From: Fidelibacterota bacterium | GTDB lineage: Bacteria > Fidelibacterota > Marinisomatia > Marinisomatales > TCS55 | Length of the DNA stretch: 32,000 bases | Reading direction: 5' to 3' | NCBI GenBank assembly: GCA_046861385.1 | Contig: JBHHTW010000013.1 | Coordinates: 25,493-57,492 of the forward strand | Part shown: positions 7,307 through 26,298 of the stretch, in pieces | Layout: the number at the start of each line of letters is the position of its first letter | Position numbering within the stretch: position 1 is the stretch's first letter | Position numbers and translations under genes: made by a program | Notes under the pieces: generated by a model | What the model saw: the letters and a program-made list of their open reading frames with translations, nothing else | What the model was told of the DNA's origin: nothing | Databases searched by the model: none

Positions 7307-7540
7307 ATTGAACTATTTATGATGACTATAAAAATAATAAGTAAGAATACAAATACATGAATAATTTAGTTACCAACTTGGACCCTTTATGAGAAAACAT
7401 ATTTATAAGTACTGGTGCCGTAATAATATTGGACTGGGGTATTATAACGCTGTAAAATTGGTTAAACGAAAATATGTAATTGATGAATATTACATTTTAC
7501 AGACTTAAACTTTATCGTGGTTAGCAATCCAAATATAAAT

Positions 7541-8158
7541 ATGATTCGTACAATAAAATACAAAGCCGGTGAAATAATCCGACAAAAAAACGCTCATGTA
7601 TATATACTACATTTCATTTTTTGTTTATTGATTAGTTGCGCACCGTCAATTAAGGAGCTTTCAGAAACAGATCCTGAAGCTGTTATCAACAGGAAAAACG
7701 AATTACTTGCCGGCAGCTCTGTATCGAAAGAAGTAAAAACGGCGGTGATTAATGCCCATAATAAAATAGGCAATGAGGCATTAAGGCGGGAGGACTTAGA
7801 GGAAGCTGAAAAACAGTTCAATGAATCGTTGTTGTTAGATAATAAAAATAAACAAGCACATTACGGTTTAGCAATGATTAAAGGACTTCGCCGATTCAAG
7901 AAAGGAAGTAAGTCGGCACTATGGGAAGCCATGGAGAATTTTGGAAAAGCGGCCTTTTTTGACCCGGCAAAGGGAGACCCGCACTACTGGATGGGACGCA
8001 CATATGAGAAAAAAGATGATGGAGATTTTGACCTTATAATTGAAGCATATGAAAAAGCATTAGGATTGCCTCTTCCAGACCCCTTGAAACAAGATGCTCA
8101 AAATAGATTAGAATTAGTAAAAAAACACCAAAAAACCTTAGAGGATTTTTGGAACTAG
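7541..8158 (+). CDS. TPR-repeat lipoprotein
   Basis: The internal ATG gives MIRTIKYK...FIFCLLISC|APS with a lipobox (L-I-S-C). TPR-like helices follow (ALRREDLEEAEKQFNESLLLDNKNKQAHYGLA; PHYWMGRTYEKKDDGDFDLIIEAYEKAL). The tracked start at 7517 is GTG. Confidence 0.55.
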   Translation: MIRTIKYKAGEIIRQKNAHVYILHFIFCLLISCAPSIKELSETDPEAVINRKNELLAGSSVSKEVKTAVINAHNKIGNEALRREDLEEAEKQFNESLLLDNKNKQAHYGLAMIKGLRRFKKGSKSALWEAMENFGKAAFFDPAKGDPHYWMGRTYEKKDDGDFDLIIEAYEKALGLPLPDPLKQDAQNRLELVKKHQKTLEDFWN

Positions 8159-8426: not shown

Positions 8427-9587
8427 ATGAATAAAAAATCGCTAATAAGATATGCTATTCTTAGCCTATTTCTTATTTTATGTAATACAATTCTTTTTGC
8501 GAAAGATTATAAAGTAAGCGGAACTTTAGTCGATGCTAATGAAAATAAAATTGGCGGTGCAACCGTTCTGCTTCTCACGCCAGACGGCGTTGAATCTCAG
8601 CGAACCAACACGTCAAAACCGCGTATGGGCATGGGGGGCGGAAGTTTCAAATTTAAAGATGTTCTTCCTGGGGACTACGCCCTGGAAGTAGATGCCGGAG
8701 CCAAAGGATCTATAAATACACCCATAACAGTCACGGATACCGATGTTGAAGATATCGCACTGGTGTTATCCGTCAGCGATTCAAATACTGAAGAAGAATC
8801 CCCCACTAATATCACCAGCGTTGTAACGGTACCGGAAGAGGCGGTTGAATCCGGAAGTTCCCCTGAATATGTGGCGACTGAGATCAGTTTTGAATTGAAA
8901 AAGTTAGGCGCTGAAATCAAACACTTAAACTCTGAATTGGAGGATCTCAAAGCGTTAAGTAAAATGTGGGTAAATCCTCTATCCATTTATTCCAAAGAAA
9001 TTATCCTGCAAAATGGAAGCACCGTTTTCGGAAAAATTGTCTATCAGGACGAAGAAACACTTAAAGTAGAAACATTAGTAGGCTATTTAATCATTGAGAG
9101 AAAAAAGGTGGTTAGAGTAATCGATAATATTGTGTCAGAAGAAACTCAGGAATACGTTCCAGAGCAAATCAGAGACAGTTACTCTCCTCCTCCGATGCCA
9201 AAACTGGCAGAACCCAAGTATACTTCTGCAGATCCGCTTAATCGCAAAGCGGGAAAAAAATATTCTGCAAATTGTGTATTAGTTGGAAACATCAGTGAAA
9301 GCAAAGACAATCAGGGCGCCATCATTTTCACGGGAGAGGTTAAAAATATCGGTGGACGCCGGGCAGATTTTGTAAAGGTTGATTTTGTTTTCCGTAAAAA
9401 CTGGAGCGGTGAGACCAAAACACTTACCACGTTTGTCCGAGGAACTTACCACACTTTTGATTCTGGAATTACAACTGACGCGACGCTTCTTCCGGGCTCA
9501 AACGGGGCATTCGAACTTTTTATCCCCAACGATTTTGGTTCATTTATAGGCTATTCTTATGTCATAGATTGGGAGGAATACCAGTAG
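8427..9587 (+). CDS. Secreted protein: CarboxypepD_reg-like beta-sandwich, coiled coil, small beta domain, Pro-rich linker and C-terminal beta-sandwich
   Basis: Signal peptide MNKKSLIRYAILSLFLILCNTILFA. YKVSGTLVDANENKIGGATVLLLTPDG...GDYALEV is the typical CarboxypepD_reg-like pattern. A heptad-like stretch follows (ELKKLGAEIKHLNSELEDLKAL). This is the first gene of the operon. Confidence 0.6.
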   Translation: MNKKSLIRYAILSLFLILCNTILFAKDYKVSGTLVDANENKIGGATVLLLTPDGVESQRTNTSKPRMGMGGGSFKFKDVLPGDYALEVDAGAKGSINTPITVTDTDVEDIALVLSVSDSNTEEESPTNITSVVTVPEEAVESGSSPEYVATEISFELKKLGAEIKHLNSELEDLKALSKMWVNPLSIYSKEIILQNGSTVFGKIVYQDEETLKVETLVGYLIIERKKVVRVIDNIVSEETQEYVPEQIRDSYSPPPMPKLAEPKYTSADPLNRKAGKKYSANCVLVGNISESKDNQGAIIFTGEVKNIGGRRADFVKVDFVFRKNWSGETKTLTTFVRGTYHTFDSGITTDATLLPGSNGAFELFIPNDFGSFIGYSYVIDWEEYQ

Positions 9588-10477
9588 TGAAGGCACTGCA
9601 AAGTTCACGTTGGCTTTTATATTATATAAGTGCTGGAATTATTTTTTCCACCCCTTTAATTGCTCAACGGCAGACATCATCACTCTCCGAAATATTTTTA
9701 TTGGATCTAGGAATAGTTATTGAGCCTGAAACAGGTTCAGAAACATATTCCCGCCTTATAGAGACCCCGTCTCGAGAAGTAAATTTTAGGATTAAAAAGG
9801 TTCATAGCGGGTCTGTTTATATGGCAGCATCCGATGAATTATTAAGTGCAATTGAACGGATTAATGTTCGTATTTCTGATATGGAGACATCTTTTAAAAA
9901 TGAACTGATGGCGCTAAGGGCTGAAAACAAAGAGTTAAAAACTGTATTAACGAACTATCAATCAATCAATAACGAACCTAAAAAACCCATTATAGTGGCA
10001 GCGCCCGCCCCCCCTTCTCCAGAAAATGACATATTAATTGATCCATTACCCGAAGTGGCCAGTATACATATCGAACCCCTTTCTCCCGATAAATCTTTTA
10101 ATCAGCGGACATACATGGCAGGCGTTTTTGCATATCAGAGGGAAGACTTTGCGTCTGCTTTGAAATATTTTGCGAAGTTACATTTGGAATTAGCATCATT
10201 GGAAACAATTGATAATGTAATGTACTGGACAGCGGATGCGTATCAACAAATCCATAATGATCAAAAAGCGCTTGAAATATTAGACAAATTAATAGAAAAT
10301 CAAAATTCTTATCGTCTTGATGATGCGTTGGTAAAAAAAGGATTGCTGTATAAAAAAATCGGGCAATTAGATTTAGCAATGCAAGCATTCAGCCGGGTGG
10401 TAAAAGAGTATCCCAACAGTGAATATACTCGCTTGGCAAGTCTGGAACTAAAACGAGTGGAGATGGCTTTACAGTGA
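9587..10477 (+). CDS. Periplasmic coiled-coil plus CpoB/YbgF-like TPR protein
   Basis: The likely start is the GTG at 9587, overlapping the upstream TAG, with GGAGGA at 9572-9577 as the SD. The ORF track uses TTG 9569. Features are a signal peptide (LLYYISAGIIFSTPLIAQ), a coiled coil (ISDMETSFKNELMALRAENKELKTVL), a Pro-rich linker and a C-terminal TPR block ending KEYPNSEYTRLASLELKR. That ending resembles the YbgF/CpoB C-terminal domain. Confidence 0.6.
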   Translation: MKALQSSRWLLYYISAGIIFSTPLIAQRQTSSLSEIFLLDLGIVIEPETGSETYSRLIETPSREVNFRIKKVHSGSVYMAASDELLSAIERINVRISDMETSFKNELMALRAENKELKTVLTNYQSINNEPKKPIIVAAPAPPSPENDILIDPLPEVASIHIEPLSPDKSFNQRTYMAGVFAYQREDFASALKYFAKLHLELASLETIDNVMYWTADAYQQIHNDQKALEILDKLIENQNSYRLDDALVKKGLLYKKIGQLDLAMQAFSRVVKEYPNSEYTRLASLELKRVEMALQ

Positions 10478-11877
10478 GAAAAGTTAATTATAGTTTTATA
10501 TCAATATTATTGCTAATTACATCCTTATTGTTTGGAGCTACACGCGTGGCATATACACGCCCGGGTTTTATGATGAAAATTCCATCATCAAGCGTTCAGA
10601 AAGCGCCCTATTTATTCCGTACTGGTTTTGGGACAGAATTGCACAATTTTAATCCGTTTAATTCCGCCCAGGGTATTTATTTTGATATGGAACTTGGGAA
10701 AAACTTCACATTTGGTTTTTCATCTGTACAAACAGCCGATACAACGGCGCTTGCTTTGCTGGGAACAACCGGATACACTCCTCCTGTAGAATTTGGATTT
10801 CACATACAGCAACGAGTCTACACTTATAATAATATTTCTCTTTCAATTGGTCTCCAAGACATCGTATTTCAAAACGCTGAAAGCGGCGGGTTAAGCCTTA
10901 ACCCCGAGGAACTTTCCTTTTTTGCTGTCGTCAGCAGCGAGAAAAATCTCGGGAAATATCATTTAAGTACCTTTATGGGTTTTGGCTCTGGAGGTTTTTC
11001 TCCAGCGGACACACTTGTTGATACAACAACCGCGATCACTAGTACAGCATCGAACAATACGACAACCCAGGCAGGTGTTTTTATGGGGTTAATAATGAAC
11101 ACGCCATACTTGGAAAAATGGGGTGGTATTGATATTGTGGGTGAATTTGATGGTACAGGCATCAATGTGGGACTCCGCATCCCCCTTACCTCGGATTATC
11201 GCCTGAACCTTGGGTTCACCCACATAGAAAAACTTCCAGATTTCAAAACCCGTTATTGGGAAGGGCATCCAGGGGTCACCCTCGGCTTTGATATGGCAGT
11301 TCCAAAAACAGGACGCACTCCATCGTCAGAGGGCTTTGGAGGACCGTCGCCCCTTCCCGGCTCACAATTAAAACTTCCGGGAACCGGTCAATATGAATCA
11401 CTCTCTTCGTCAGCGGATTCAACATTAGCGCTTGCAGATTATGCGGTTCATACTGTCCGAGACTCCATGACGATGTTGAAAAACGAAATGCGCAACCTGA
11501 TGGTTAACTTGGCTTCTATCCAACAGCAATCTCAATTTTTAGAGGATTCATTATTGGCAATGAAACTGAATCGTAATGTAGATGAAAAAAACATGAACGA
11601 AGCCATGCGGCATTTGTCTCGGTCGTTAAGATATTTTTATTCCGGGGATTACAGAGCAGCCTTACAAGAGGTGGAATCTGCTTTGGACTTAAACCCGAAT
11701 CTGGCTTTAGCCTATGCCCGTCGAGGATCTATATACTATAAACTTGGAGATATTCAACGAGCAACCATCAACTGGAATCTAGCATTGCGCATGGATCCCG
11801 AATATGATGATGTCAGAAACATTTTAAAAGCCCTACACGAAAACCGTTTAAAATCGACGAGTGTAGTAGAGGAGTAA
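10474..11877 (+). CDS. Secreted beta-rich (possibly outer-membrane) domain, coiled coil and C-terminal TPR protein
   Basis: The GTG start overlaps the upstream stop (GTGA). The signal peptide is MRKVNYSFISILLLITSLLFGA. About 280 aa are Gly/aromatic-rich with alternating strands, followed by a coiled coil (MTMLKNEMRNLMVNLASIQQQSQFLEDSLLAMKL). TPRs close the protein (YSGDYRAALQEVESALDLNPNLALAYARRGSIYYKLGDIQRATINWNLALRMDP). Confidence 0.6.
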   Translation: MRKVNYSFISILLLITSLLFGATRVAYTRPGFMMKIPSSSVQKAPYLFRTGFGTELHNFNPFNSAQGIYFDMELGKNFTFGFSSVQTADTTALALLGTTGYTPPVEFGFHIQQRVYTYNNISLSIGLQDIVFQNAESGGLSLNPEELSFFAVVSSEKNLGKYHLSTFMGFGSGGFSPADTLVDTTTAITSTASNNTTTQAGVFMGLIMNTPYLEKWGGIDIVGEFDGTGINVGLRIPLTSDYRLNLGFTHIEKLPDFKTRYWEGHPGVTLGFDMAVPKTGRTPSSEGFGGPSPLPGSQLKLPGTGQYESLSSSADSTLALADYAVHTVRDSMTMLKNEMRNLMVNLASIQQQSQFLEDSLLAMKLNRNVDEKNMNEAMRHLSRSLRYFYSGDYRAALQEVESALDLNPNLALAYARRGSIYYKLGDIQRATINWNLALRMDPEYDDVRNILKALHENRLKSTSVVEE

Positions 11878-11881
11878 ATAG

Positions 11882-12664
11882 ATGGATATTGCAACACTAA
11901 TAGGAATAATACTTGGTTTAGGCTCTATTTTCAGCGGAATATTTCTTGCTGCATCGTCTGCAAATGCCGGTATGGGAGGTTTCGTATCACCTTCAAGCTT
12001 TGCGATTGTTGTGGGAGGAATGATTGCCTCCGTTTCTGTCGCTTTCCCCTTATCCGATGTTTTACAGCTGGGAGCGGCAATGGGTGCGGTGCTGAAAGGT
12101 GGAAAACTGAAACTGGGCACTGTTGTCGATGATGCAGTAGTGACAGCTGAAGTGGGAAGAAAAGGAGCGGCTGAATTAGAAAAAGCATTAGATGGAGTAA
12201 AAAATCCATTTTTTAAAGATGGCGTACAAATGGTAGTGGACGGTTATTCGTTGGATGAATTGACCGAGATTCTGGAAACCCGCATTGAGTATAGGGAGAT
12301 TCGCGAAAAAACACAAGCCGGGTTATTTAAATCGATGGGTACCATGGCGCCCGCCTGGGGGATGATAGGAACACTGATTGGGTTGGTAATTATGTTATCT
12401 GGTTTTGGCGGTGAAGGCGGAGCAGATGCGCTTGGTCCCGGTATGTCAGCAGCATTGATTACTACATTCTATGGCGCTGTTTTAGCGAATTTGTTTTTTC
12501 TACCCATGAGTGAAAAATTAAATACAAGAATTAGTTTTACCAGCACAATGCAAGCGATGCTTGTTGAAGCAGCGCGATTAATCCATCAGAAGAAGCACCC
12601 GTTAATTGTTCGGGAAAAATTAAATTCCTTTATTCCTCCTAAGGAGTGGAAAAAAGAAGATTAA
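11882..12664 (+). CDS. motA: Flagellar-type stator protein MotA/PomA (MotA/TolQ/ExbB proton-channel family)
   Basis: 260 aa with a 2+2 TM layout and a large cytoplasmic loop between TM2 and TM3. TM3 is MAPAWGMIGTLIGLV and TM4 is MSAALITTFYGAVLANLFFLPMSEKL, carrying both conserved MotA prolines. A GAGGAG SD lies 7 nt upstream. Confidence 0.9.
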   Translation: MDIATLIGIILGLGSIFSGIFLAASSANAGMGGFVSPSSFAIVVGGMIASVSVAFPLSDVLQLGAAMGAVLKGGKLKLGTVVDDAVVTAEVGRKGAAELEKALDGVKNPFFKDGVQMVVDGYSLDELTEILETRIEYREIREKTQAGLFKSMGTMAPAWGMIGTLIGLVIMLSGFGGEGGADALGPGMSAALITTFYGAVLANLFFLPMSEKLNTRISFTSTMQAMLVEAARLIHQKKHPLIVREKLNSFIPPKEWKKED

Positions 12665-12668
12665 TTAA

Positions 12669-13460
12669 ATGCCAAAAACAGCTAAAGAACAAAAAGCCTA
12701 TAAAGCAGGCATCGCACAAGGAAAAACCCTTGTAGACGAAGGTCTACCCGGGTGGTTTGGAACTTTTGCTGATATGATGACGCTCTTGTTTGCGTTCTTC
12801 GTTCTGTTGGCGGCTATATCAACAATTGATCCTGTAAAGTTGCAGGAAATGGCTGATGCCATGGGTAAGTCTGTGGGTAGTAAGATAAAAAAGGAAAGCC
12901 AGGCTATGAACTTAGCGGACATTAAGAAAGCAGTTCAGGAAATGGTAAAAGAAATGCAAGAAGACTCTGAAACTGGAGAAACACCGGTTGAAGTTACTAC
13001 CGGGCCAAAAGGAGTAACCATTGGAATTTCATCTGATATAAGCTTTGCCTCCGGATCAGCAAAAACAAAACCGCAGATTGTTGATATATTGACAAAAATT
13101 GTACCCACCATAGAGAAGTCTTATTTCCAGATAGCTGTGGAGGGACATACAGACAATGAAAAACTACCTGAAGCATTACAAGTCAAATATCCCACAAATT
13201 GGGAGCTGTCGTCTGCCAGAGCATCGGCGGTTGTAAGAGAATTAATTAGACTGGGGGTGAACCCCACTCGATTGGAAGCAGTGGGTTATGGCGAATATGT
13301 TCCGCGGGATCGCGCGTCACATGAGTTAATTACGGCTGAGGTGATAATGAAATATAATAACACACAGGACCAAAAATCCAGAAACAGGCGTGTGGAAATT
13401 ACATTCCTGGCTCCAAGTTACAGCAGGGCCGGTGGAGATGAAAGCGAGAGCAATTCATAG
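12669..13460 (+). CDS. motB: Flagellar-type stator protein MotB (OmpA-like peptidoglycan-binding domain)
   Basis: PGWFGTFADMMTLLFAFFVLL holds the conserved channel Asp at the start of the single TM. The C-terminal OmpA-like motifs are VEGHTDN...NWELSSARASAV...NRRVEI. Confidence 0.9.
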   Translation: MPKTAKEQKAYKAGIAQGKTLVDEGLPGWFGTFADMMTLLFAFFVLLAAISTIDPVKLQEMADAMGKSVGSKIKKESQAMNLADIKKAVQEMVKEMQEDSETGETPVEVTTGPKGVTIGISSDISFASGSAKTKPQIVDILTKIVPTIEKSYFQIAVEGHTDNEKLPEALQVKYPTNWELSSARASAVVRELIRLGVNPTRLEAVGYGEYVPRDRASHELITAEVIMKYNNTQDQKSRNRRVEITFLAPSYSRAGGDESESNS

Positions 13461-13504: not shown

Positions 13505-15043
13505 ATGAGAAAAGTTAATATTTACTGTAGATCATTTATACTGGCAATATTTTGCCTCAGTGTGAGCTGGGGACAGAATAATAATTATTTAGCCCAGAAA
13601 TTGATGGTTGAAAATGATTTGCGCCAGCGTATAACTGATGCTTTATCTAAAATTATTGATGACAGAAAATATGTTATCGATGTTAAAGCCGATATTGAAA
13701 TCAGTGATGGTACGGAAGAACAAATCACCATCATGGGAGAAGGAAAACAACCACCGTCAGGTCAAGTATTAGAAGATGTATCATCGGATTTACAACAATC
13801 ATTAGAAAAGCCTTCTTCTGACAGATCTTCCGGTATATCAAGCGGCTTGCCTATCCCCGGATTCGAGTTTGAATCAGATGGTGGAGACGCTTACGCGGCA
13901 GAAACCGGAACCGAACCTGAAATGTTAACTCAAAGCACCCCTTCTTTAAGCTCCAGTCAAAAGAGTAATATATTATCAAGAACTGTAACGAGTCGCCGCC
14001 CATCGAAAGCAATAATTACAAAATTGGATATCAGTATTATTTTACAGGAAGGAGCCGCTCCGGAATTGATTGAAAATATACGTCAAGTCGTTATGGTTTC
14101 TTCCGGTTTTAATAGAGCCCGGGGCGATGCCTTAAGTATTATGACAGCTACGTTTAAAGAACGACGAGACGAAAAAACAGCGGAACAGATTTTATTAAAA
14201 AATATTGCTGAAAAACTTGAATCTCTGGAACAGCAGCAATCAGGCGACGGTTCTGTTCACTGGAAAGATGAACTGGATAGCTATAAAGCTCAGGAAGAAG
14301 AAAGGCGCGAGCAAGATAAATTGTATTTCCAGCAGCAACTCACTAATCTGGAATCAGAAGCAAGAAATCGTGCGTATCAAACAGAAAAAAGAGAGATGTT
14401 AAGACGTGATTCCTTAAAACTTATAGAGTTAAACAAAGAAATCAATGACTTAAAATCAATGATGGCTTCTTCTGATGTTTCGGTGGATGAAGTTGGACAG
14501 GCCCAAAATGCCATCGGTGAAAAAATCAGCGAGAAAGAATCGCTGGATGTAAAAATTGCTGAAAAACTGGCCATGCTTGATGCGGTTCAATCCGATCTTG
14601 ATCGCAGTATGGGCGGTGGGCCTTCTACAATGATGGTTGTTTTCGTTTCCCTTTTGGGTGCGTTGGTAATCGTCTTGGTTGTGGCGCTGATAATCATAAT
14701 GATGGGAAATAAACAAAAACAGCAACTTCCACCCCCGTGGATGTACCCACCTCGGCCTCGGAAAAAAAAAAGTAAAAATAAACCAGTGACACCCATTACC
14801 CAACCGGCGCCATCTGCACCTGCACCCCGACCTGTTGAAGATACTGCCGTTCTGCAAAGCGAAGTTTCTGATATGAAACAAGCCGTTGTCTCCATGAGCG
14901 TTGGGCAACCGGGTACTGCCACAAGAATTGTAAAAGAATGGATGGAAGACGATGTGCCGCCGCCAGAACCGGAACCGGCTGCTCCTGTGGAAGCTGAAGA
15001 AGAAGATAGCGGTAAAAAGAAAAAGAAAAAAAAGAAAAAGTAA
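13505..15043 (+). CDS. Reduced FliF-like (MS-ring-like) bitopic membrane protein
   Basis: The ATG at 13505 has an AAGGAG SD 5 nt upstream; the track start 13472 is less likely. After an N-terminal hydrophobic segment, ENDLRQRITDALSKIIDDRKYVIDVKADIEIS resembles the start of FliF RBM3. ITKLDISIILQEG..IENIRQVVMVSSGFNRARGDALSIMTATF (about 14009-14155) resembles its end (RLSVAVVV...A.GF...RGD...V....F). About 150 aa of E/Q/K-rich coiled coil follow, then TM2 (14630-14704) and a Pro-rich tail. The tail contains GTATRIVKEWMEDD (14912-14953), which resembles the FliG-binding C-terminal helix of FliF, then an acidic stretch and K9. Confidence 0.55.
   Translation: MRKVNIYCRSFILAIFCLSVSWGQNNNYLAQKLMVENDLRQRITDALSKIIDDRKYVIDVKADIEISDGTEEQITIMGEGKQPPSGQVLEDVSSDLQQSLEKPSSDRSSGISSGLPIPGFEFESDGGDAYAAETGTEPEMLTQSTPSLSSSQKSNILSRTVTSRRPSKAIITKLDISIILQEGAAPELIENIRQVVMVSSGFNRARGDALSIMTATFKERRDEKTAEQILLKNIAEKLESLEQQQSGDGSVHWKDELDSYKAQEEERREQDKLYFQQQLTNLESEARNRAYQTEKREMLRRDSLKLIELNKEINDLKSMMASSDVSVDEVGQAQNAIGEKISEKESLDVKIAEKLAMLDAVQSDLDRSMGGGPSTMMVVFVSLLGALVIVLVVALIIIMMGNKQKQQLPPPWMYPPRPRKKKSKNKPVTPITQPAPSAPAPRPVEDTAVLQSEVSDMKQAVVSMSVGQPGTATRIVKEWMEDDVPPPEPEPAAPVEAEEEDSGKKKKKKKKK
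14762..14771 (+). repeat. A10 homopolymer inside the FliF-like CDS (encodes RKKKSK)
   Basis: Read directly: g-aaaaaaaaaa-gt at 14761-14773. A second purine-only Lys-coding tract, (AAA/AAG)x9, lies at 15014-15040. Confidence 0.9.
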
Positions 15044-15052
15044 GGTAACAAT

Positions 15053-15985
15053 ATGATTACAGATTACAATAGACTTTCCGGTCTGCAAAAAGCAGCCGTT
15101 CTTTTCTCCGTTTTAGGTGAGGGGTTAGCTCTCTCTCTTGTTAAAGATCTTTCAAAGACTGAAATTCGAAAAGTACGAGCAGCGATGCGCGATTTGGATA
15201 ATGTCTCATTTTTAATAAAAAAACGAGTTATGGAAGAATTTTACTTCAGTTTTGTCAGTGAAAAATTTTATGATGAAAATTCTGACGAACCCAAAAAACC
15301 GTTCTCATTTTTAGACGATATTACAGATGAACAATTATTTGCGCTCATTAAACCAGAATCTGCATCAGTGGCCGCCATTGTTTTGGCACAGATTCCGGGA
15401 GAAAGACGAATGAAAATTGTGGAGCGGTTCGATGCTATGTCAAAAGGTGAAATCATTATGGAAATGGGAAATCTAAAGGATATTCCACTTGAAGCGGTCG
15501 TAAGCGTTGCAACCGACCTAATGAAAAAATCCAAATTATTACCCAAAACAGTTGCTTTCTCCCGGGGCGGAGGAAAAGATATTGCTGACATTCTTGGCGG
15601 ATTATCATCGGAGGAAGAAAAATTATTTCTTGAAAATATTTCTCGAGAAAACCCGGAATTAGCAGATGATATTAAAAAATATCATTTGACCTGGGAGATC
15701 ATATTCGAAGTATTACCCGACAGCACGTTACGCGATTTAATGAATTCTGTCGAACTGGATTCCATTGCCATGGCGCTGAAAGGAATGCCGGAAGACGTTG
15801 TGAATCGGGTGATCGAAAATCTACCGCAAAAGAAACAGGCTATGTATGAACCGGTTGAAGGGGCTGTTTCCAAGCGGGAAGTTGATAATGCAAGAAAACA
15901 AATTGTATCCTCCGCGAAAAAAATGGAAAAAGACGGAGCTTTCAATCTGTCGGACTTAGTCGGCGGTGGAGACATGGTAGAATAA
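15053..15985 (+). CDS. fliG: FliG homologue (rotor/torque-ring protein), short form with a degenerate FliM-binding motif
   Basis: 310 aa, collinear with FliG over its whole length. Matches are LSGLQKAAVLFSVLGEGLALSLVKDLSKTEI (FliG-N), KPFSFL, GGGKDIADIL, ENPELADDIKK, IAMALKGMPEDVVNRVIENLPQKK and the charged C-terminal helix SKREVDNARKQIV. Confidence 0.85.
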   Translation: MITDYNRLSGLQKAAVLFSVLGEGLALSLVKDLSKTEIRKVRAAMRDLDNVSFLIKKRVMEEFYFSFVSEKFYDENSDEPKKPFSFLDDITDEQLFALIKPESASVAAIVLAQIPGERRMKIVERFDAMSKGEIIMEMGNLKDIPLEAVVSVATDLMKKSKLLPKTVAFSRGGGKDIADILGGLSSEEEKLFLENISRENPELADDIKKYHLTWEIIFEVLPDSTLRDLMNSVELDSIAMALKGMPEDVVNRVIENLPQKKQAMYEPVEGAVSKREVDNARKQIVSSAKKMEKDGAFNLSDLVGGGDMVE

Positions 15986-16159: not shown

Positions 16160-17467
16160 TTGAATAATTTGATTGAAAAAATAGAAGAATATATTTTATC
16201 AGGATGTACCCATAAAGAAAACAGGGCAATTGGTGTAGAAGTAGAATCTATTATCTATAACAAACGCGGTGAACGAATTCCGGTAGATTCCAAAGAAGAA
16301 TTTTCAGCATTAGATTTTATCGATAGGATTACATCTGAATGCGAGGATCATCATTCATTTGTAACCTGCTCTCTGGAGCCGGGCGGCCAGGTGGAATGGG
16401 CATCCAAACCGGCCGTTACGATTCATGAATTAAACGATGAATTAAACACAATTAAAAATGCAGTTAAAATAGTGTGTTCGGAAAATGATTTAACGGTAGT
16501 AGATTTAAGCCTTGATCCTGTTTATGGGCCAAATGAGATTAAACTAATTAATCAGAAAAAATACCAGTTGATGCACAAACGATTTACGTCATCGGGAACA
16601 CTCGGCCCATGGATGATGCGTAATACGGCGAGTGTTCAAATAAATATTGATTTGCTTGATAAACAAGATGCAGAAGAATGTGGATTTATTGCCGATTGTA
16701 TCAGCCCTTTTGCCGCCATGATGTTTTCCAATGCGCCATTCATGAAAAGCCAACCCGTCGGATATGAAAATATTCGGTATAAAATCTGGGCGGATACAGA
16801 TTCTCCGCGTTGCGGTTATTTTATGGATCATGGAATGAATGATAGCGACGGTCTAATATCACAATTCGCTGAATATATTCTGGATGTTCCTGTTATTTTT
16901 ACAACTCCGGATCAACAAAATGAAGTGGGATATTTTAACGGCACCATTGGTGAATGGCTGACGGCAATAGAAGAAAAAAAACAGATAAAGTATGACGATA
17001 TTAAAACAGCGCTCCACCAAATATTTACCCATAATCGTTTCAAAAGCGTTTTGGAAATTCGTTCACCGGATAGACCACCACATGGATATGAATTAGCTCC
17101 GGCAGCTTATTGGACAGGGTTGATGGAAAAAGGAAAAATCAGAGAATCATTATTAGAAACACTTTCAAGCTGGACGATAAAAGAACGGACGGCAATGAAT
17201 CTAAAAGCCCTTTCGATTGATATAAAACAAGACGGTCCAAAACAAAAGTCTATTTTGCAATGGTTGGAATGGTTTGCGGAATTAGCGCTCGAAGGTCTTG
17301 AGAACAGGGCGAGCCGCCTGAATATTCCATCAGAAAAAAGGTATATTGAACCATTCACAAACGATATTTTTTCAAAGGGAATTTTCTCCCTTCAGGTTCA
17401 GGAAGATTTTGCTAAACAGAGTAAGTCCGTAAAAGACTTCATATTAAGGAAACGAGAGAATGATTAA
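16160..17467 (+). CDS. Glutamate-cysteine ligase family protein (plant/proteobacterial GCS2-like type)
   Basis: 435 aa. GVEVES near the N-terminus, SLEPGGQVEWAS and KIWADTDSPRCGYF resemble the conserved blocks of type-2 gamma-glutamylcysteine synthetases. The start codon (TTG in the track) is uncertain. Confidence 0.7.
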   Translation: MNNLIEKIEEYILSGCTHKENRAIGVEVESIIYNKRGERIPVDSKEEFSALDFIDRITSECEDHHSFVTCSLEPGGQVEWASKPAVTIHELNDELNTIKNAVKIVCSENDLTVVDLSLDPVYGPNEIKLINQKKYQLMHKRFTSSGTLGPWMMRNTASVQINIDLLDKQDAEECGFIADCISPFAAMMFSNAPFMKSQPVGYENIRYKIWADTDSPRCGYFMDHGMNDSDGLISQFAEYILDVPVIFTTPDQQNEVGYFNGTIGEWLTAIEEKKQIKYDDIKTALHQIFTHNRFKSVLEIRSPDRPPHGYELAPAAYWTGLMEKGKIRESLLETLSSWTIKERTAMNLKALSIDIKQDGPKQKSILQWLEWFAELALEGLENRASRLNIPSEKRYIEPFTNDIFSKGIFSLQVQEDFAKQSKSVKDFILRKREND

Positions 17468-17870
17468 TATCGAACATTTTCACAGGCAAATGATTCATTT
17501 CCCTATGGCATTGTTAACTATGAGTATCGTATTCGATTTGGCTGGCATATATTTCAAAAAAGAACAGTTTTTTTCAACAAGCTGGTACATATTAATAACA
17601 GGAGTTTTAGGGTCGGTTGCGGCTATCTTGTCCGGGGTGATTGCAGACACGGTGTACGGACACATGTCAAATCCATTCCCAATATATAAGACACATGGAA
17701 TGGTCCAAATAATAGCCAGCGCCATATTTATCAGTTTATGGTTCTGGCGATATTTTCAAGGCTCACCAAAAAATAAACCACCCATGTGGTATTTAATCGT
17801 CGGTTTGATTGCTGTCATTACATTATTGTATGGCGGTCATTTAGGCGGAACATTGGCCGGACATGGTTAA
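17460..17870 (+). CDS. DUF2231-like four-helix membrane protein
   Basis: 136 aa. The N-terminal HFPMALLTMSIVFDL resembles the DUF2231 signature (HP.lVHFPIAL). There are four hydrophobic helices. The ATG overlaps the end of the ligase gene by 8 nt. Confidence 0.55.
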   Translation: MINIEHFHRQMIHFPMALLTMSIVFDLAGIYFKKEQFFSTSWYILITGVLGSVAAILSGVIADTVYGHMSNPFPIYKTHGMVQIIASAIFISLWFWRYFQGSPKNKPPMWYLIVGLIAVITLLYGGHLGGTLAGHG

Positions 17871-21324: not shown

Positions 21325-21356
21325 TAAAAAAGCCCCGGAATATCGGGGCTTTTTTA
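21325..21356. terminator. Bidirectional rho-independent terminator between convergent sdhB and tonB
   Basis: AAAAAA-AGCCCCG-gaatat-CGGGGCT-TTTTT: a perfect 7-bp GC-rich stem (21331-21337 with 21344-21350) flanked by A- and T-tracts. It can therefore terminate both strands. The T-tract side overlaps the tonB stop codon. Confidence 0.75.
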
Positions 21357-21971
21357 TTTAAGTCTAAAATTAACCGGGATTGAAATCCAAACCCCTACAG
21401 CACGTTCCCGCTGTTTCGCCGGTCTAAAACGTGTTCTTCGAATCGCTTCAATTGCGGCTTCGTCCAATCCGGTGTTTGGGATACCTTTTAAAATCGATGT
21501 TTCTTTTACTCGTCCTTTTTTATCAACAAAAACCTGAACAATAACCGTTCCTTCGATGCCGGCTTCCTGGGCGATTTCCGGATATTTCGGGCGAATAGGC
21601 GATAACGGTTTTGGTGGGTCATCATAGGGAATGAATTTTACCTGCGGTCCTTCCGGCGGCGGCGGCGGCGCATCCCAAGCCTCAAAACTTTCTAAATCCG
21701 TTTCTTCAATGGTTAGGTCATCCGCAAGGTCTTCAGACTCCGACTCAATCGGCACAGAAGGTCTTGCCGGAGGCGGGGGTAAATCAAATTGCTGTGTCTG
21801 AGGAATATCAATCTGTTCGATGATAATTTGATTCGCATCTTCTAATACAACTGTTGTGAAACTTCGAGGAACAAACAGAAAACCAAATGTAATGATCAAT
21901 ATTCCAACAAGCCCTGCAATCCTCACCGTTAAGGAATAGTTAAATTTCAGTTGGGGTGTATAATCGCTCAT
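21354..21971 (-). CDS. tonB: TonB family energy-transducer protein
   Basis: 205 aa. It has an N-terminal TM anchor, Pro-rich spacers (LPPPPARP, PPPPPEGP) and a C-terminal TonB domain (YPEIAQEAGIEGTVIVQVFVDKKGRV...RFRPA). Confidence 0.8.
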   Translation of the reverse strand: MSDYTPQLKFNYSLTVRIAGLVGILIITFGFLFVPRSFTTVVLEDANQIIIEQIDIPQTQQFDLPPPPARPSVPIESESEDLADDLTIEETDLESFEAWDAPPPPPEGPQVKFIPYDDPPKPLSPIRPKYPEIAQEAGIEGTVIVQVFVDKKGRVKETSILKGIPNTGLDEAAIEAIRRTRFRPAKQRERAVGVWISIPVNFRLK

Positions 21972-21974
21972 GAT

Positions 21975-22385
21975 TTAATTAACAGCTGTTTTCGTAGAAT
22001 AGTTAAGCTTTAATGCATCAGCTTTCCGCAATTCATTGTGTATATTAGAAATAAGTCCCATTTTTGCAGATTTGTCTGCTTTTAGGGAGACGGTTAATAA
22101 TGGGTCAGCTGAACGAATCTCATACATTACATGACGTACAGATTCTATATTATGCAATTTATCTTGAATGGATATCAAGCCTTTTTTATCCACAAAGACA
22201 TGAGCAGTATGACGTTTGGATTTTAATTTTTCAATACGTTTTGCCCGGGGTAATTCGACAGGCAAACCATCATATTCACGAAGAACGGTTGTGACCATAA
22301 AAAATATCAGCAGCATAAATATAATGTCCGGCATCGATGCCGTTGGGATGTCGCTTGAAATTTTCGTCTTACGTTGAACTTTCAT
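21975..22385 (-). CDS. exbD: ExbD/TolR family biopolymer transport protein (copy 2)
   Basis: 136 aa. MPDIIFMLLIFFMVTT holds the conserved TM Asp, with the periplasmic domain following. Confidence 0.85.
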   Translation of the reverse strand: MKVQRKTKISSDIPTASMPDIIFMLLIFFMVTTVLREYDGLPVELPRAKRIEKLKSKRHTAHVFVDKKGLISIQDKLHNIESVRHVMYEIRSADPLLTVSLKADKSAKMGLISNIHNELRKADALKLNYSTKTAVN

Positions 22386-22780
22386 TAGTCGGACTCAGCA
22401 ATGGATATTCGTTTTGCATTGGCCATTTTTAGCTGATCAATCACAGAAATATAGTCGCTATATTTTGTTTTTTCATGAGCCTTCACAGAAATAATCAGCT
22501 TATCATTTTCCGCAATTCTACGACGAATTTCCTTACTAATATCACTTATTCTTACAGGATCACGGCCCAAAAGAACATCGCCCTTTGAATTAATAAGACA
22601 ATTTAGGATATTGTCTTTCTTTATTTCTATCTCTTCACCCTCCGCGGGGAGTACGATACCCAACCCTTTATCCATATCTATCGTAGTTGTCACTAAGAAA
22701 AAAATGAGCAGAAGAAAGGCAATATCTGCCATGGAAGAAGTCGGGATTTCACCCCCTTTGAATCGACGCTTATTTTTCAT
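22385..22780 (-). CDS. exbD: ExbD/TolR family biopolymer transport protein (copy 1)
   Basis: 131 aa. It has MADIAFLLLIFFLVTT, and its stop overlaps the next start by 1 nt. Confidence 0.85.
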   Translation of the reverse strand: MKNKRRFKGGEIPTSSMADIAFLLLIFFLVTTTIDMDKGLGIVLPAEGEEIEIKKDNILNCLINSKGDVLLGRDPVRISDISKEIRRRIAENDKLIISVKAHEKTKYSDYISVIDQLKMANAKRISIAESD

Positions 22781-22798
22781 TCGCTTTGATTCTCGAAA

Positions 22799-23416
22799 TT
22801 ATTTATTTAATTGCATTTCATATAGTTTATCAACCAATTGGATTGAATGCTCCTCCATTTCCAAAACCAGTTTATCAATTCTGGAAACAAATAAGTTTTG
22901 AAAAATTTGGATAATCATTGCGACAATCAGACCAAAAGCAGTGGTTAACAATGCCTGTGAAATACCACCGGCAACAACAGCGGGTGAAATATCATCCGCA
23001 GCAGCAATAGCATCAAAAGCAGAAATCATCCCGGCGACTGTACCTGTAAAACCAAGCATCGGAGCAATGGTAATAACAGCATTTAGCCAAATCATGTTTT
23101 TTTCAAGAAAAGACATTTCTAAGGAACCGGCGTTTTGAATTGCCTTTTCAACTTCTTCTAAACCTCTGTTAATTCGAGAAAGACCAGCATGAAAAATTTC
23201 AGCTACAGGACCGTTTGTTTTTTCACAAAGCTCCATGCAGGCTTTTTCACCCTCATTCTTCAATGTGTCATTAACATCATCGAAAAACTTTTGTGCATTA
23301 ATTGATGACATGATCAGTGAATAAAAACGCTCACCTGCAAAAGCAAGCCCAAAAATCAATGACAATAATATTGGCCACATAAAGGGACCACCATTTACGA
23401 AATATTCGACTAGCAT
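22799..23416 (-). CDS. exbB: ExbB (MotA/TolQ/ExbB proton-channel family)
   Basis: 205 aa. It has IAPMLGFTGTVAGMI and ALLTTAFGLIVAMI, the family TM2/TM3 signature. A GGAGG SD lies upstream on the minus strand (about 23421-23425). Confidence 0.85.
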   Translation of the reverse strand: MLVEYFVNGGPFMWPILLSLIFGLAFAGERFYSLIMSSINAQKFFDDVNDTLKNEGEKACMELCEKTNGPVAEIFHAGLSRINRGLEEVEKAIQNAGSLEMSFLEKNMIWLNAVITIAPMLGFTGTVAGMISAFDAIAAADDISPAVVAGGISQALLTTAFGLIVAMIIQIFQNLFVSRIDKLVLEMEEHSIQLVDKLYEMQLNK

Positions 23417-26036: not shown

Positions 26037-26298
26037 ACTATACTCGTTATAAGACTGCATCGCATCGTCCAATTTAGTCTTCTACTCTTTAAATTTGGAA
26101 AGGAAATATTGCGCCGAATTTAGACAATTCTGAATGTAAAATAGGGCCTTTTCCTTGTATTTTTCGAGGGTGAAAGTCTATATTCCCATTCAGTAGATGT
26201 AGATGAATATAGCTTATTCTGCGTTTTAGCAGAGCGAGCAATCATCTTTATAAAGTAAAACGACAATCGAGGTAAGGATTAATAGGAAGAAAGACATT

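What the first reader, a model, noticed from the sequence alone, without database searches (positions are those of the whole stretch)
13505..15043. Reduced FliF-like protein: RBM3-like ends only, no RBM1/RBM2, a long coiled-coil spacer and a retained FliG-docking-like helix
Seen in the sequence:
- Directly after the N-terminal hydrophobic segment comes ENDLRQRITDALSKIIDDRKYVIDVKADIEIS.
- About 100 aa of Ser/Glu-rich low-complexity sequence follow.
- Then comes ITKLDISIILQEG..IENIRQVVMVSSGFNRARGDALSIMTATF.
- About 150 aa of E/Q/K/R-rich heptad-like sequence follow (about 14156-14610), then a second TM (14630-14704).
- The cytoplasmic tail is Pro-rich, contains GTATRIVKEWMEDD (14912-14953), turns acidic and ends in nine lysines.

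Established (from memory of FliF alignments and Salmonella MS-ring structures):
- FliF RBM3 opens with E..L..RI...L..IvG.g.v.V.V.a.lDF and closes with RLSVAVvV......i..LV..AvGf...RGD.v.V....F just before TM2.
- RBM1/RBM2 form the inner ring around the export gate.
- The extreme C-terminus carries a conserved Trp-containing helix that binds the FliG N domain.

Inference: this protein keeps the two halves of RBM3, both TMs and the FliG-binding helix. It lacks RBM1/RBM2, replaces the beta-collar with low complexity, and inserts a long coiled coil between the ring domain and the membrane. Loss of the export-gate-facing ring fits the absence of export genes.
Basis: partly seen in the sequence, partly recalled or inferred. 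Interest (0 to 1): 0.8.

Follow-up and report, generated by a model that had tools for sequence, protein, structure and literature searches.

The report
Flagellar rotor ring without a flagellum
This gene encodes a cut-down flagellar MS-ring protein (FliF) that sits in an operon conserved across marine Marinimicrobia with a FliG rotor protein, MotA/MotB stators and TPR envelope proteins, with no secretion, rod, hook or filament genes nearby, so it is probably a flagellar-type rotary motor turned to an unknown, non-flagellar job.

Summary
The 512-aa protein (13505-15043) is a real FliF relative.

- **FliF homology.** It passes Pfam's threshold for the FliF RBM3/collar domain over the whole profile. 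A profile of its ring domain finds canonical FliFs at the RBM3 position. Its best structural matches are Salmonella FliF RBM3/collar rings.
- **What is missing.** There is no RBM1/RBM2 and no room for them.
- **FliG docking.** The C-terminal motif MSVGQPGTATRIVKEW matches the FliG-binding end of canonical FliF.

- The N-terminal hydrophobic stretch looks like a cleaved signal peptide, not a first transmembrane helix.
- The beta-collar hairpin is probably kept. The low-complexity stretch is its variable tip loop.

The gene lies in an operon whose order is the same in all 80 Marinimicrobia species loci examined (128 species matched): Ig-like protein, YbgF-like TPR protein, 467-aa TPR protein, MotA, MotB, FliF-like, FliG-like. 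More distant relatives have no helical spacer or a much longer one. Some are natural FliF-FliG fusions next to MotAB.

Most likely this is an ion-driven rotor-stator module with a periplasmic output. What it drives is unknown. I found no paper describing it.

The parts
13505..15043 (+). FliF-like gene (512 aa) carrying only the RBM3/collar ring domain; here called FliFc
   Evidence: PF08345 39.1 bits. It equals NCBI 'FliF C-terminal domain-containing protein' of a Fidelibacterota MAG.
13505..13573 (+). Probable cleaved signal peptide (residues 1-23), ending small-x-small before the invariant Gln24
   Evidence: Hydropathy and alignments. Inference; no signal-peptide predictor was available.
13574..13732 (+). 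First half of RBM3: helix about 28-50 and long strand 57-76, which would run into the collar
   Evidence: AF2, hhalign to E. coli FliF from residue 237, invariant YLAQKLMxEN..R.RI motif.
13733..13969 (+). Variable, disordered collar-tip loop (residues 77-155) with the conserved GLPIPGFEF island at 13844-13870
   Evidence: pLDDT below 50, low conservation apart from the island, hhalign pairs the island with E. coli FliF GYPGGVPGAL.
13970..14155 (+). Second half of RBM3: strand 156-179, helix 186-199 and the closing F..RGD.L.I....F motif
   Evidence: GFNRARGDALSIMTATF aligns with E. coli GFSEKRGDSLNVVNSPF.
14156..14620 (+). Helical periplasmic spacer (residues 218-372); clear heptads only in the last 70 residues or so; length varies widely among relatives
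   Evidence: AF2 helices with block pLDDT mostly 76-94, periodicity test, relatives with about 0 to more than 230 aa here.
14627..14719 (+). The single transmembrane helix
   Evidence: The only segment with Kyte-Doolittle score above 1.6, peaking at 3.3; AF2 helix 375-405.
14729..14770 (+). Conserved cytoplasmic motif next to the membrane, PPPWMYPPRPRKKK
   Evidence: Invariant P410, W412, Y414, P415, P416, K420, K421. It is absent from E. coli FliF. Function unknown.
14843..14947 (+). Two C-terminal helices (residues 447-481) carrying the FliF-type FliG-binding motif ...SMSVGQPGTATRIVKEW
15014..15040 (+). Nine-lysine tail, present only in some clades
15053..15985 (+). FliG-like rotor protein with N, M and C domains; the GGG hinge is kept and the EHPQR FliM-binding motif is lost
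12669..13460 (+). MotB-type stator subunit: plug, channel Asp (FADMMT) and OmpA-like peptidoglycan-binding domain
11882..12664 (+). MotA subunit of PomA/MotP type, with equivalents of E. coli P173 and P222 kept
10474..11877 (+). 467-aa exported protein: beta-rich N-terminal domain, coiled coil and C-terminal TPRs; always directly upstream of motA
9569..10477 (+). YbgF/CpoB-like exported protein with coiled coil and TPRs
8427..9587 (+). Exported protein with a CarboxypepD_reg Ig-like domain; its C-terminal two thirds are the conserved part of the module
7517..8158 (+). TPR protein with a lipobox-like LISC; found upstream at variable distance, so only loosely linked

Best explanation
The gene encodes a FliF derivative that keeps only the S-ring building block: RBM3 with its collar hairpin.

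**Predicted topology.** After signal-peptide cleavage the ring domain lies in the periplasm. A helical spacer of about 150 aa joins it to a single TM helix. The cytoplasmic tail ends in the two-helix FliF motif that docks into FliG's N-terminal domain.

**Proposed mechanism.** Subunits oligomerise through RBM3 into a ring. Each tail holds one FliG, which gives a FliG ring under the membrane. PomAB/MotPS-type MotAB units are anchored to peptidoglycan by MotB's OmpA-like domain. They conduct ions and push on FliG's C-terminal domain, so the FliG/FliFc ring turns. With no RBM1/RBM2, export gate, rod, FliM or FliN, the torque has to be used in the periplasm. The likely route is the raised ring and its collar loops, which carry the conserved GLPIPGF motif, acting on the co-conserved TPR, coiled-coil and beta-rich envelope proteins of the operon. 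Those proteins may also hold the stators in place, as the TPR proteins PflA/PflB do in Campylobacter (my own knowledge).

**Shown here:** homology and domain make-up of all four motor proteins, retention of the stator's catalytic residues, the FliG-binding motif, and operon conservation.

**Inferred:** ring formation, rotation, signal-peptide cleavage and the nature of the output.
For: **FliF RBM3/collar homology**
- PF08345 passes its threshold over the full profile.
- The RBM3 profile finds only 130 proteins in 1.84e9. Several are 530-610 aa long and match at about residues 240-420, as a canonical FliF would. The one scanned, P0337, has PF01514 plus PF08345 and matched at E=1.7e-8.
- hhalign to E. 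coli FliF 237-436. Foldseek's top 16 PDB hits are all FliF entries, 15 of them cryo-EM MS-ring/RBM3 structures.

**FliG coupling**
- Tail motif matches the canonical FliF C-terminus.
- fliG follows 9 nt after the stop.
- In an AF2 model of tail plus FliG, the second tail helix rose from pLDDT about 55 to about 80, although the alignment gave the tail no homologues.
- Relatives P0341 and P0351 are natural fusions of RBM3, TM and FliG_M (P0351 also FliG_C). P0351 lies directly upstream of MotA and MotB.

**Working motor parts**
- FliG has all three domains. K264 is kept as K243 and R281 as K260, and the GGG hinge is kept.
- MotB keeps the plug, the channel Asp and the OmpA domain. MotA keeps both conserved prolines.

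**Selection as a unit**
- Same gene order in 80 of 80 Marinimicrobia species loci. The same set appears at 26-46% identity in further lineages.

**Non-flagellar context**
- No other flagellar gene in the window or in 1.45 Mb of related loci.
- The EHPQR FliM site is lost.
- The only cultured member of the phylum is non-motile (PMC11652737).
- Communities dominated by Marinisomatota were scored non-motile by a rule needing two of fliG, fliM and fliNY (PMC10359470).
Against: - Nothing here shows a ring or rotation.
- The monomer model is of modest quality (pLDDT 63, pTM 0.27), and its third RBM strand was not predicted.
- Direct sequence similarity to solved FliFs is weak (E about 0.05). hhalign against a single E. 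coli sequence gives only 31% probability.
- The tail-FliG contact could not be inspected because no coordinates or PAE are returned.
- D288/D289 of E. coli FliG fall in a gap of the pairwise alignment, with only nearby Glu residues.
- Absence of other flagellar genes was checked only within about 10 kb of the operon, not across whole genomes.
- No output partner is identified.
- It is not known whether the cultured non-motile species has this operon.
Confidence: 0.6

Rival explanations
1. Static platform rather than rotor. The FliFc/FliG ring does not turn. It recruits and activates MotAB units, which then act as force transducers or envelope tethers between inner membrane, peptidoglycan and outer membrane, in the manner of Tol-Pal with its YbgF/CpoB partner.
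For: - A YbgF/CpoB-like TPR protein and other TPR or outer-membrane-like proteins are co-conserved.
- MotB carries an OmpA-like domain.
- No rotating output part is identifiable.
- Loss of the FliM/FliN interface shows the ring is no longer a switch.
Against: - The stator is of the flagellar PomA/MotP type, not the TolQ/ExbB type: MotP 172 bits against TolQ 15.7 bits.
- A separate ExbB-ExbD-ExbD-TonB set lies in the same window.
- FliG keeps the C-terminal domain with K264/R281 equivalents and the hinge. That is hard to explain without torque generation.
Confidence: 0.2
2. Part of a real but unusual flagellum. The export apparatus, rod, hook and filament genes lie elsewhere in the genome, and this FliF is simply very divergent.
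For: - Sources annotate the neighbours as FliG and MotA/B.
- Whole genomes were not scanned here.
Against:
- The FliM-docking EHPQR motif is lost.
- fliE, fliH, fliI and fliJ normally flank fliF-fliG. They are absent in 88 loci totalling 1.45 Mb.
- The partners are TPR and Ig-like envelope proteins in every lineage.
- Literature points to non-motile cells.
Confidence: 0.07
3. Decaying relic of a lost flagellum with no present function, or a MotAB-based defence system of the Zorya kind.
For: - A reduced gene set is what a relic would look like.
- MotB weakly matches ZorB models, as any MotB does.
Against: - The ORFs are intact with invariant motifs and fixed synteny across 128 species at 32-86% identity, with more than 1900 homologues.
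- There is no ZorA hit and no defence-island context. Neighbours are housekeeping genes.
Confidence: 0.03

Closest known systems
FliF, the flagellar MS-ring protein (Salmonella/E. coli; PDB 6SD1, 6SCN, 8T8P)
   Same: - RBM3 split by a collar hairpin with a disordered tip loop.
- The closing F..RGD.L.V....F motif.
- A TM helix after the ring domain.
- The C-terminal motif that binds FliG_N.
- fliG encoded immediately downstream.
   Different: - No RBM1/RBM2.
- The N-terminal TM is replaced by a probable cleaved signal peptide.
- A helical spacer of 150-230 aa lies between RBM3 and the TM, where E. coli FliF has only about 20 residues.
- New PPPWMYPP juxtamembrane motif and a poly-Lys or acidic tail.
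- No fliE, fliH, fliI or export genes nearby.
- Scores far below the FliF equivalog cut-off (22.8 against 129.75 bits).
FliG plus PomAB/MotPS rotor-stator pair of the flagellar motor
   Same: - Three-domain FliG with the GGG hinge and basic residues at the K264 and R281 positions.
- MotA of PomA/MotP type.
- MotB with plug, channel Asp and OmpA domain.
   Different: - FliG lacks the EHPQR motif.
- No FliM, FliN or CheY partner is evident.
- The stator genes sit directly upstream of fliFc-fliG, behind TPR protein genes.
SpoIIIAG, the sporulation channel ring (my own knowledge; not among the Foldseek hits)
   Same: A ring-building motif with a beta insertion forms a large homo-oligomeric ring without RBM1/RBM2, outside a flagellum.
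   Different: - Its TM is N-terminal.
- It has no FliG-binding tail and no stator.
- No sequence or fold match was seen here.
Periplasmic TPR scaffolds of complex flagellar motors (Campylobacter PflA/PflB) and Tol-Pal YbgF/CpoB
   Same: Exported TPR and coiled-coil proteins are encoded with, and presumably positioned around, MotAB-type units.
   Different: The resemblance is at domain level only. No orthology was shown and there is no flagellar disk or Tol-Pal core.
GldLM/PorLM and AglRQS-Glt gliding and type IX secretion motors
   Same: An ion-driven inner-membrane motor whose output is carried across the periplasm by a long helical element to outer-membrane partners in non-flagellated cells of the FCB group.
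   Different: - Those use ExbBD-like 5:2 units whose own periplasmic subunit is the shaft.
- They have no FliF or FliG ring.
- The weak GltJ hit (19 bits) lies in the TM and Pro-rich tail and is compositional.

Membership tests
FliF (flagellar MS-ring protein) | RBM3/beta-collar domain (Pfam PF08345) | tested here: met
   E=1.3e-9, 39.1 bits against a cut-off of 23.8, profile 1-147 of 147. Profile hit to canonical FliF at E=1.7e-8. Foldseek's top hits are FliF RBM3/collar structures.
FliF (flagellar MS-ring protein) | RBM1-RBM2 region (Pfam PF01514, YscJ_FliF) | tested here: not met
   No hit at E<=1. RBM3 begins about residue 28, directly after the signal peptide.
FliF (flagellar MS-ring protein) | Two TM helices flanking the periplasmic region | tested here: not met
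   Only one segment passes the hydropathy test. The N-terminal segment looks like a signal peptide with a conserved cleavage-type site before the invariant Gln. No dedicated predictor was run.
FliF (flagellar MS-ring protein) | C-terminal helices that bind FliG_N | tested here: inconclusive
   The motif is conserved and aligns to the E. coli and Vibrio FliF C-termini. Two helices are predicted. pLDDT rises when fused to FliG. The contact itself could not be inspected.
FliF (flagellar MS-ring protein) | Equivalog-level score (NCBIfam TIGR00206, cut-off 129.75 bits) | tested here: not met
   22.8 bits, matching profile positions 238-449 only.
FliF (flagellar MS-ring protein) | Genomic association with type III export and axial genes (fliE, fliH, fliI, flhA, fliPQR and others) | tested here: not met
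   None in the window or in 88 related loci totalling 1.45 Mb. Whole genomes were not scanned.
Flagellar rotor-stator module (FliG with MotAB/PomAB) | FliG with N, M and C domains and a charged torque ridge | tested here: met
   FliG_N, FliG_M and FliG_C all exceed their cut-offs. Matches PDB 3HJL at E=7.5e-21 by sequence and 1.3e-9 by fold. K264 is K243 and R281 is K260. D288/D289 fall in an alignment gap next to E266/E269.
Flagellar rotor-stator module (FliG with MotAB/PomAB) | EHPQR motif of FliG_M, the FliM docking site | tested here: not met
   EHPQ is ESAS and R160 is E137 in the alignment with E. coli FliG. The family consensus keeps only the Glu.
Flagellar rotor-stator module (FliG with MotAB/PomAB) | Stator with channel Asp, plug, peptidoglycan-binding domain and conserved MotA prolines | tested here: met
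   MotB_plug 56 bits, OmpA 51 bits. FADMMT aligns with E. coli YADFMT, which holds D32. APAWG and FLPMS align with P173 and P222. Best NCBIfam models are MotP and PomA.
SctJ/YscJ/PrgK injectisome inner-ring lipoproteins | Lipobox plus RBM1-RBM2 (PF01514) | tested here: not met
   No PF01514 hit. There is no lipobox; the conserved site is small-x-small before Gln.
Zorya (ZorAB) anti-phage system | ZorA with a long cytoplasmic tail, plus ZorC/D/E partners | tested here: not met
   No PADLOC hit for MotA, FliFc, FliG or the upstream proteins. Only generic ZorB/MotB similarity was found.
Tol-Pal system | TolQ/TolR/TolA/TolB/Pal core with YbgF/CpoB | tested here: not met
   Only a weak YbgF-like hit (40.6 bits against a cut-off of 90.1). 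MotA scores 15.7 bits to TolQ against 172 bits to MotP.

The most novel reading that the evidence does not exclude
Marinimicrobia, and some unidentified relatives, run a self-contained rotary machine. It is built from a FliF S-ring/collar, FliG and PomAB-type stators, with no type III secretion core, rod or filament. Its torque is delivered inside the periplasm to TPR and outer-membrane partners. That would be a flagellar-type rotor used for something other than a flagellum, for example envelope or surface-protein movement or non-flagellar motility. It would also show that the rotor-stator half of the flagellar motor can exist and be selected apart from the export half, either as a survivor of flagellar loss or as a picture of a pre-flagellar stage.
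Probability: 0.45. Interest if true: 0.9.

Novelty: new variant of a known kind. Interest (0 to 1): 0.8.

Why it matters
- **For flagellar biology.** The rotor (FliF/FliG), the stators and the type III export core are treated as one co-evolved machine. A recent survey reports that flagellar stators form a single group tied to flagella (PMC12505986). A rotor-stator module conserved across a phylum, lacking RBM1/RBM2, FliM/FliN and any export or axial genes, would show that the torque-generating half can stand alone. That gives a natural minimal system for asking what the S-ring, the collar and its conserved loop do.
- **For motor origins.** It makes an old question testable: which came first, rotation or secretion?
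- **For ocean microbiology.** Marinimicrobia (SAR406) are among the most abundant bacteria of the dark ocean and of oxygen-deficient zones. An unrecognised energy-consuming envelope machine in them matters for their ecology.
- **For annotation.** Genome surveys that count fliG or motAB as evidence of motility would misclassify these organisms.

Tried and rejected
- **BLASTP of the 47-aa tail against the E. coli FliF C-terminus** gave nothing, and phmmer of the tail against the PDB gave nothing. Only profile methods saw the motif.
- **The whole-protein profile against the PDB** is dominated by coiled-coil noise. FliF appears only at E about 0.05.
A plain-letter fusion was accepted, but no coordinates or PAE are returned, so the interface is unverified.
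- **AFDB Foldseek** was unavailable.
- **The third homology search, with relative P0323,** returned only the query itself, because low-complexity words swamped the candidate list.
- **Cluster look-ups gave no organism names** for the non-Marinimicrobia relatives, so their taxonomy is unknown.
- **Promoter and terminator scans** were no better than shuffles.
- **Literature searches** for Marinimicrobia with FliG, MotA or FliF, for non-flagellar FliF/FliG/MotAB clusters, and of the 2025 MotAB evolution paper found no description of this system.
- **Considered and rejected:** a defence system, an injectisome SctJ, and GltJ kinship, where the 19-bit hit is in the Pro-rich tail.
- **Spacer length against MotB length.** A glance at the few relatives with both values showed no obvious relation, and I did not pursue it.
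Full report

The ORF 13505-15043 (+) encodes 512 aa. Its ATG is preceded by AAGGAG at a 5-nt spacing, and the product is identical to an NCBI MAG protein (P0001) named 'flagellar M-ring protein FliF C-terminal domain-containing protein [Fidelibacterota]'. So do the composition of the 14156-14610 stretch, the TM at 14630-14704 and the nine terminal lysines, which are encoded by mixed AAA/AAG codons and so are not a homopolymer artefact.

**2. Homology to FliF**

- Pfam YscJ_FliF_C (PF08345) matches at E=1.3e-9 with 39.1 bits (gathering cut-off 23.8). The match covers all 147 profile positions over residues 58-228 of the longer 523-aa ORF numbering.
- PF01514 (RBM1/RBM2) gives no hit even at E<=1. 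NCBIfam's FliF equivalog matches only its positions 238-449, at 22.8 bits against a cut-off of 129.75.
- A profile of the ring region alone (alignment A5) was run with HMMER against 1.84 billion representative proteins and found just 130 hits at E<=1e-3. Besides family members, these include full-length proteins of 530-610 aa matched at about residues 240-420. I scanned one of them, P0337 (E=1.7e-8), and it carries PF01514 plus PF08345, so it is a canonical FliF.
- hhalign of the family against E. coli FliF pairs residues 34-225 with FliF 237-436. It lines up GFNRARGDALSIMTATF with GFSEKRGDSLNVVNSPF (E=5e-4; probability only 31% against a single-sequence template).
- The AF2 model (58-sequence alignment, mean pLDDT 63) has a helix ending at residue 50, a strand at 57-76, a disordered stretch at 78-153, a strand at 156-179 and a helix at 186-199. 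Its top 16 Foldseek PDB hits are all FliF entries, and ranks 2-16 are cryo-EM MS-ring/RBM3 structures such as 6SD1, at probability about 0.9 falling to 0.4 by rank 16.

Homology to the FliF S-ring domain is therefore solid, and absence of RBM1/RBM2 is certain.

**3.

*(a) The N-terminal hydrophobic segment is probably a signal peptide.*
- No 19-residue window there reaches a Kyte-Doolittle score of 1.6. The C-terminal TM reaches 3.3.
- Across the family it is a basic n-region, then 10-17 hydrophobic residues, then small-x-small, followed by an invariant Gln.
- That is the pattern of a signal-peptidase-I substrate obeying the Bacteroidetes 'Q-rule'. The rule is from my own knowledge, and no predictor was available.
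- The mature protein would then be a single-pass protein with its ring domain in the periplasm.

*(b) The collar is probably not replaced.*
- The Pfam model, which covers RBM3 plus collar, is matched end to end.
- The two predicted strands are 20-24 residues long and flank the disordered loop.
- In Salmonella FliF the collar is such a hairpin, and its tip (about residues 305-359) is unresolved. That detail is from memory.
- The 'low-complexity' stretch is thus the variable tip loop. It holds one conserved island, GLPIPGF(E/D)F, which hhalign pairs with E. coli FliF GYPGGVPGAL.

**4. Spacer, tail and FliG docking**

Residues 218-372 are predicted as three long helices with block pLDDT mostly 76-94. 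A 3.5-residue periodicity beats shuffles only for 327-370 (p about 0.03). Clean heptads are visible at about 302-321 and 337-368. The highly charged 253-300 part may be a single stable helix rather than a coiled coil.

After the TM comes an invariant PPPWMYPP+basic motif, which E. coli FliF lacks. A variable Pro-rich linker follows, then two helices (447-464 and 469-481) carrying ...SE..D.+K.VVSMSVGQP...T.IVKEW.

- hhalign aligns this with the last 27 residues of E. coli FliF: MKQAVVSMSVGQPGTATRIVKEWMEDD against MSQRIREMSDNDPRVVALVIRQWINND (E=0.0015).
- The best hit of the 37-column tail profile among 177,635 PDB sequences is the extreme C-terminus of Vibrio FliF, EPELAAQVVKNWMND. At E=0.5 it is not significant alone, but it is the right protein at the right place.
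- C-terminal FliF fragments recovered end in the same pattern.
- An AF2 model of tail plus FliG, joined as in a stop-codon read-through, raised the second tail helix from pLDDT about 55 to about 80, although the alignment gave the tail no homologues. I could not inspect contacts, so docking counts as supported by motif and untested by structure.
- The poly-Lys tail is specific to some clades. Deep clades end in an acidic tail instead.

**5. The neighbours are working motor parts**

*FliG (15053-15985).*
- It exceeds the cut-offs for FliG_N, FliG_M and FliG_C.
- It matches A. aeolicus FliG (3HJL) at E=7.5e-21 by sequence and E=1.3e-9 by fold.
- It keeps the GGG hinge (FSRGGGK is invariant) and basic residues at the E. 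coli K264 and R281 positions.
- The EHPQR motif that docks FliM is lost: ESAS...E.

*MotA (11882-12664).* It scores best against the MotP and PomA models (172 and 150 bits) and negligibly against TolQ or ExbB. It keeps the equivalents of P173 and P222.

*MotB (12669-13460).* It has the plug, the channel Asp and an OmpA-like domain.

PADLOC finds no ZorA or other defence signature.

**6. Context and distribution**

- The window is from Marinimicrobia (SAR406, Fidelibacterota).
- A scan of one genome per species found the gene in 128 species. The 80 retrieved are labelled Marinimicrobia, Neomarinimicrobiota, Fidelibacterota or only 'uncultured bacterium', apart from one 'FCB group' bin and one 'SAR86' bin, which is probably mis-binned.
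- In every locus long enough to show it, the order is Ig-like protein, (YbgF-like TPR), 467-aa protein, MotA, MotB, FliFc, FliG, all on one strand. The flanks differ between lineages.
- FliFc is the least conserved member (32-86% identity). MotA, FliG and the 467-aa protein are the most conserved.
- The most divergent FliFc proteins keep the whole architecture, with spacers up to about 230 aa.
- More distant relatives, of unknown taxonomy or from deep Marinimicrobia, include proteins with almost no spacer (P0302, 323 aa) or spacers longer than 230 aa (P0280, P0289). They sit with the same partners at 26-46% identity.
- Two relatives (P0341, P0351) are natural fusions of RBM3, TM and FliG_M (P0351 also FliG_C). 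P0351 is followed directly by MotA and MotB. This echoes the functional FliF-FliG fusions known in Salmonella (my own knowledge) and argues for one-to-one functional coupling.
- No export, rod, hook, filament or switch gene occurs in the window or in 1.45 Mb of related loci.

**7. Mechanism**

The best-supported reading is a rotor-stator module working without a flagellum.
1. RBM3 oligomerises into a periplasmic ring.
2. The TM and tail hold a FliG ring under the membrane.
3. MotAB units anchored to peptidoglycan turn it.
4. With nothing axial to drive, the output must be periplasmic.

The ring stands on a helical stalk whose length varies between lineages, and it carries a conserved collar-loop motif. 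It probably engages the co-conserved TPR, coiled-coil and beta-rich exported proteins, which may equally serve as stator scaffolds.

Homology, domain make-up, catalytic residues and co-conservation are shown. Ring formation, rotation, signal-peptide cleavage and the output are inferred.

The rivals are:
- a static Tol-Pal-like platform (0.2);
- a real but odd flagellum with the other genes elsewhere (0.07);
- a relic or defence system (0.03).

**8. Known or new?**

Databases label the proteins by domain only. Searches of the paper library found no description of this system. A 2025 survey of MotAB evolution treats flagellar-type stators as flagellum-associated and does not mention this phylum. 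The only cultured member of the phylum is non-motile (PMC11652737). Communities dominated by Marinisomatota were scored non-motile by a rule needing two of fliG, fliM and fliNY (PMC10359470), which indirectly suggests fliM and fliN are missing.

I class the protein as a new architectural variant of FliF, and the operon as a new variant of the flagellar rotor-stator module. There is a fair chance (about 0.45) that it is an autonomous non-flagellar rotary machine.

**9. Limits**

- Whole genomes were not scanned.
- There are no coordinates for the co-fold.
- Model quality is modest.
- The output partner is unidentified.
- The taxonomy of the non-Marinimicrobia relatives is unknown.

Noticed in passing
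window 15014-15040; L077, L082, L083 (FliFc C-termini): The nine-lysine C-terminal tail (mixed AAA/AAG codons) is conserved in several clades with 6-11 Lys. In deep clades an acidic tail replaces it. In a ring it would put hundreds of positive charges under the membrane. Its role is unknown.
   Followed up: partly
window 14729-14770: The invariant cytoplasmic juxtamembrane motif PPPWMYPPRPRKKK has no counterpart in E. coli FliF. It could be a lipid or stator contact.
   Followed up: no
window 13844-13870: GLPIPGFEF is an island of conservation in the otherwise variable, disordered collar-tip loop. hhalign pairs it with E. coli FliF GYPGGVPGAL. It might be a short peptide ligand for the operon's TPR proteins.
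   Followed up: partly
window 15053-15985 (residues 99-138 and 246-252): The FliG-like protein has lost the EHPQR FliM-docking motif (ESAS...E) but keeps an invariant FSRGGGK hinge. That fits a rotor with no switch complex.
   Followed up: partly
L086 7832-11150; proteins P0341, P0351: These are natural single-chain fusions of a signal peptide, RBM3, a TM and FliG_M (P0351 also FliG_C). P0351 is followed directly by MotA and MotB and preceded by a TPR protein. The organism is unknown.
   Followed up: partly
window 8427-9587; L087 2109-2951; L088 12244-13155; L090 4304-5284: Only the C-terminal two thirds of the CarboxypepD_reg protein (about residues 150-386, with Leptospira LA_0442-like and FxLYD-like hits) is conserved in distant relatives. 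There it is a separate gene that can lie downstream of fliG.
   Followed up: partly
window 15041-15055: The FliFc stop and the FliG start are in the same frame, 9 nt apart (TAA GGT AAC AAT ATG). This suggests translational coupling, and read-through of one stop codon would give a FliF-FliG fusion.
   Followed up: no
window 21354-23416 (-): A separate ExbB-ExbD-ExbD-TonB cluster lies 5 kb downstream, so the cell has a conventional Ton-type motor as well as the MotAB-type one.
   Followed up: partly
window 26299-32000 (+): Two very large exported proteins with FG-GAP, He_PIG, Big_9 and cadherin-like repeats. They look like surface adhesins, and the second runs off the end of the window. No link to the motor operon was tested.
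   Followed up: no
window 9569-9650 and 25161-26072 (-); FliFc residue 24: Several exported proteins in the window have Gln right after the predicted signal-peptide cleavage site (LIA/Q, LFA/Q, SWG/Q). That matches the Bacteroidetes Q-rule in this FCB-group phylum.
   Followed up: no
L080 (JAKUUL010000087.1, labelled SAR86 cluster bacterium): A 2.9-kb contig in a SAR86 (Gammaproteobacteria) bin carries MotB, FliFc and FliG of the Marinimicrobia type. It is most likely a binning error.
   Followed up: no
window 16160-17870; L001, L005, L008, L070, L075, L081: A GCS2-family glutamate-cysteine ligase and a DUF2231 membrane protein often follow fliG directly, but in other lineages they lie kilobases away. 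They are probably just neighbours.
   Followed up: partly
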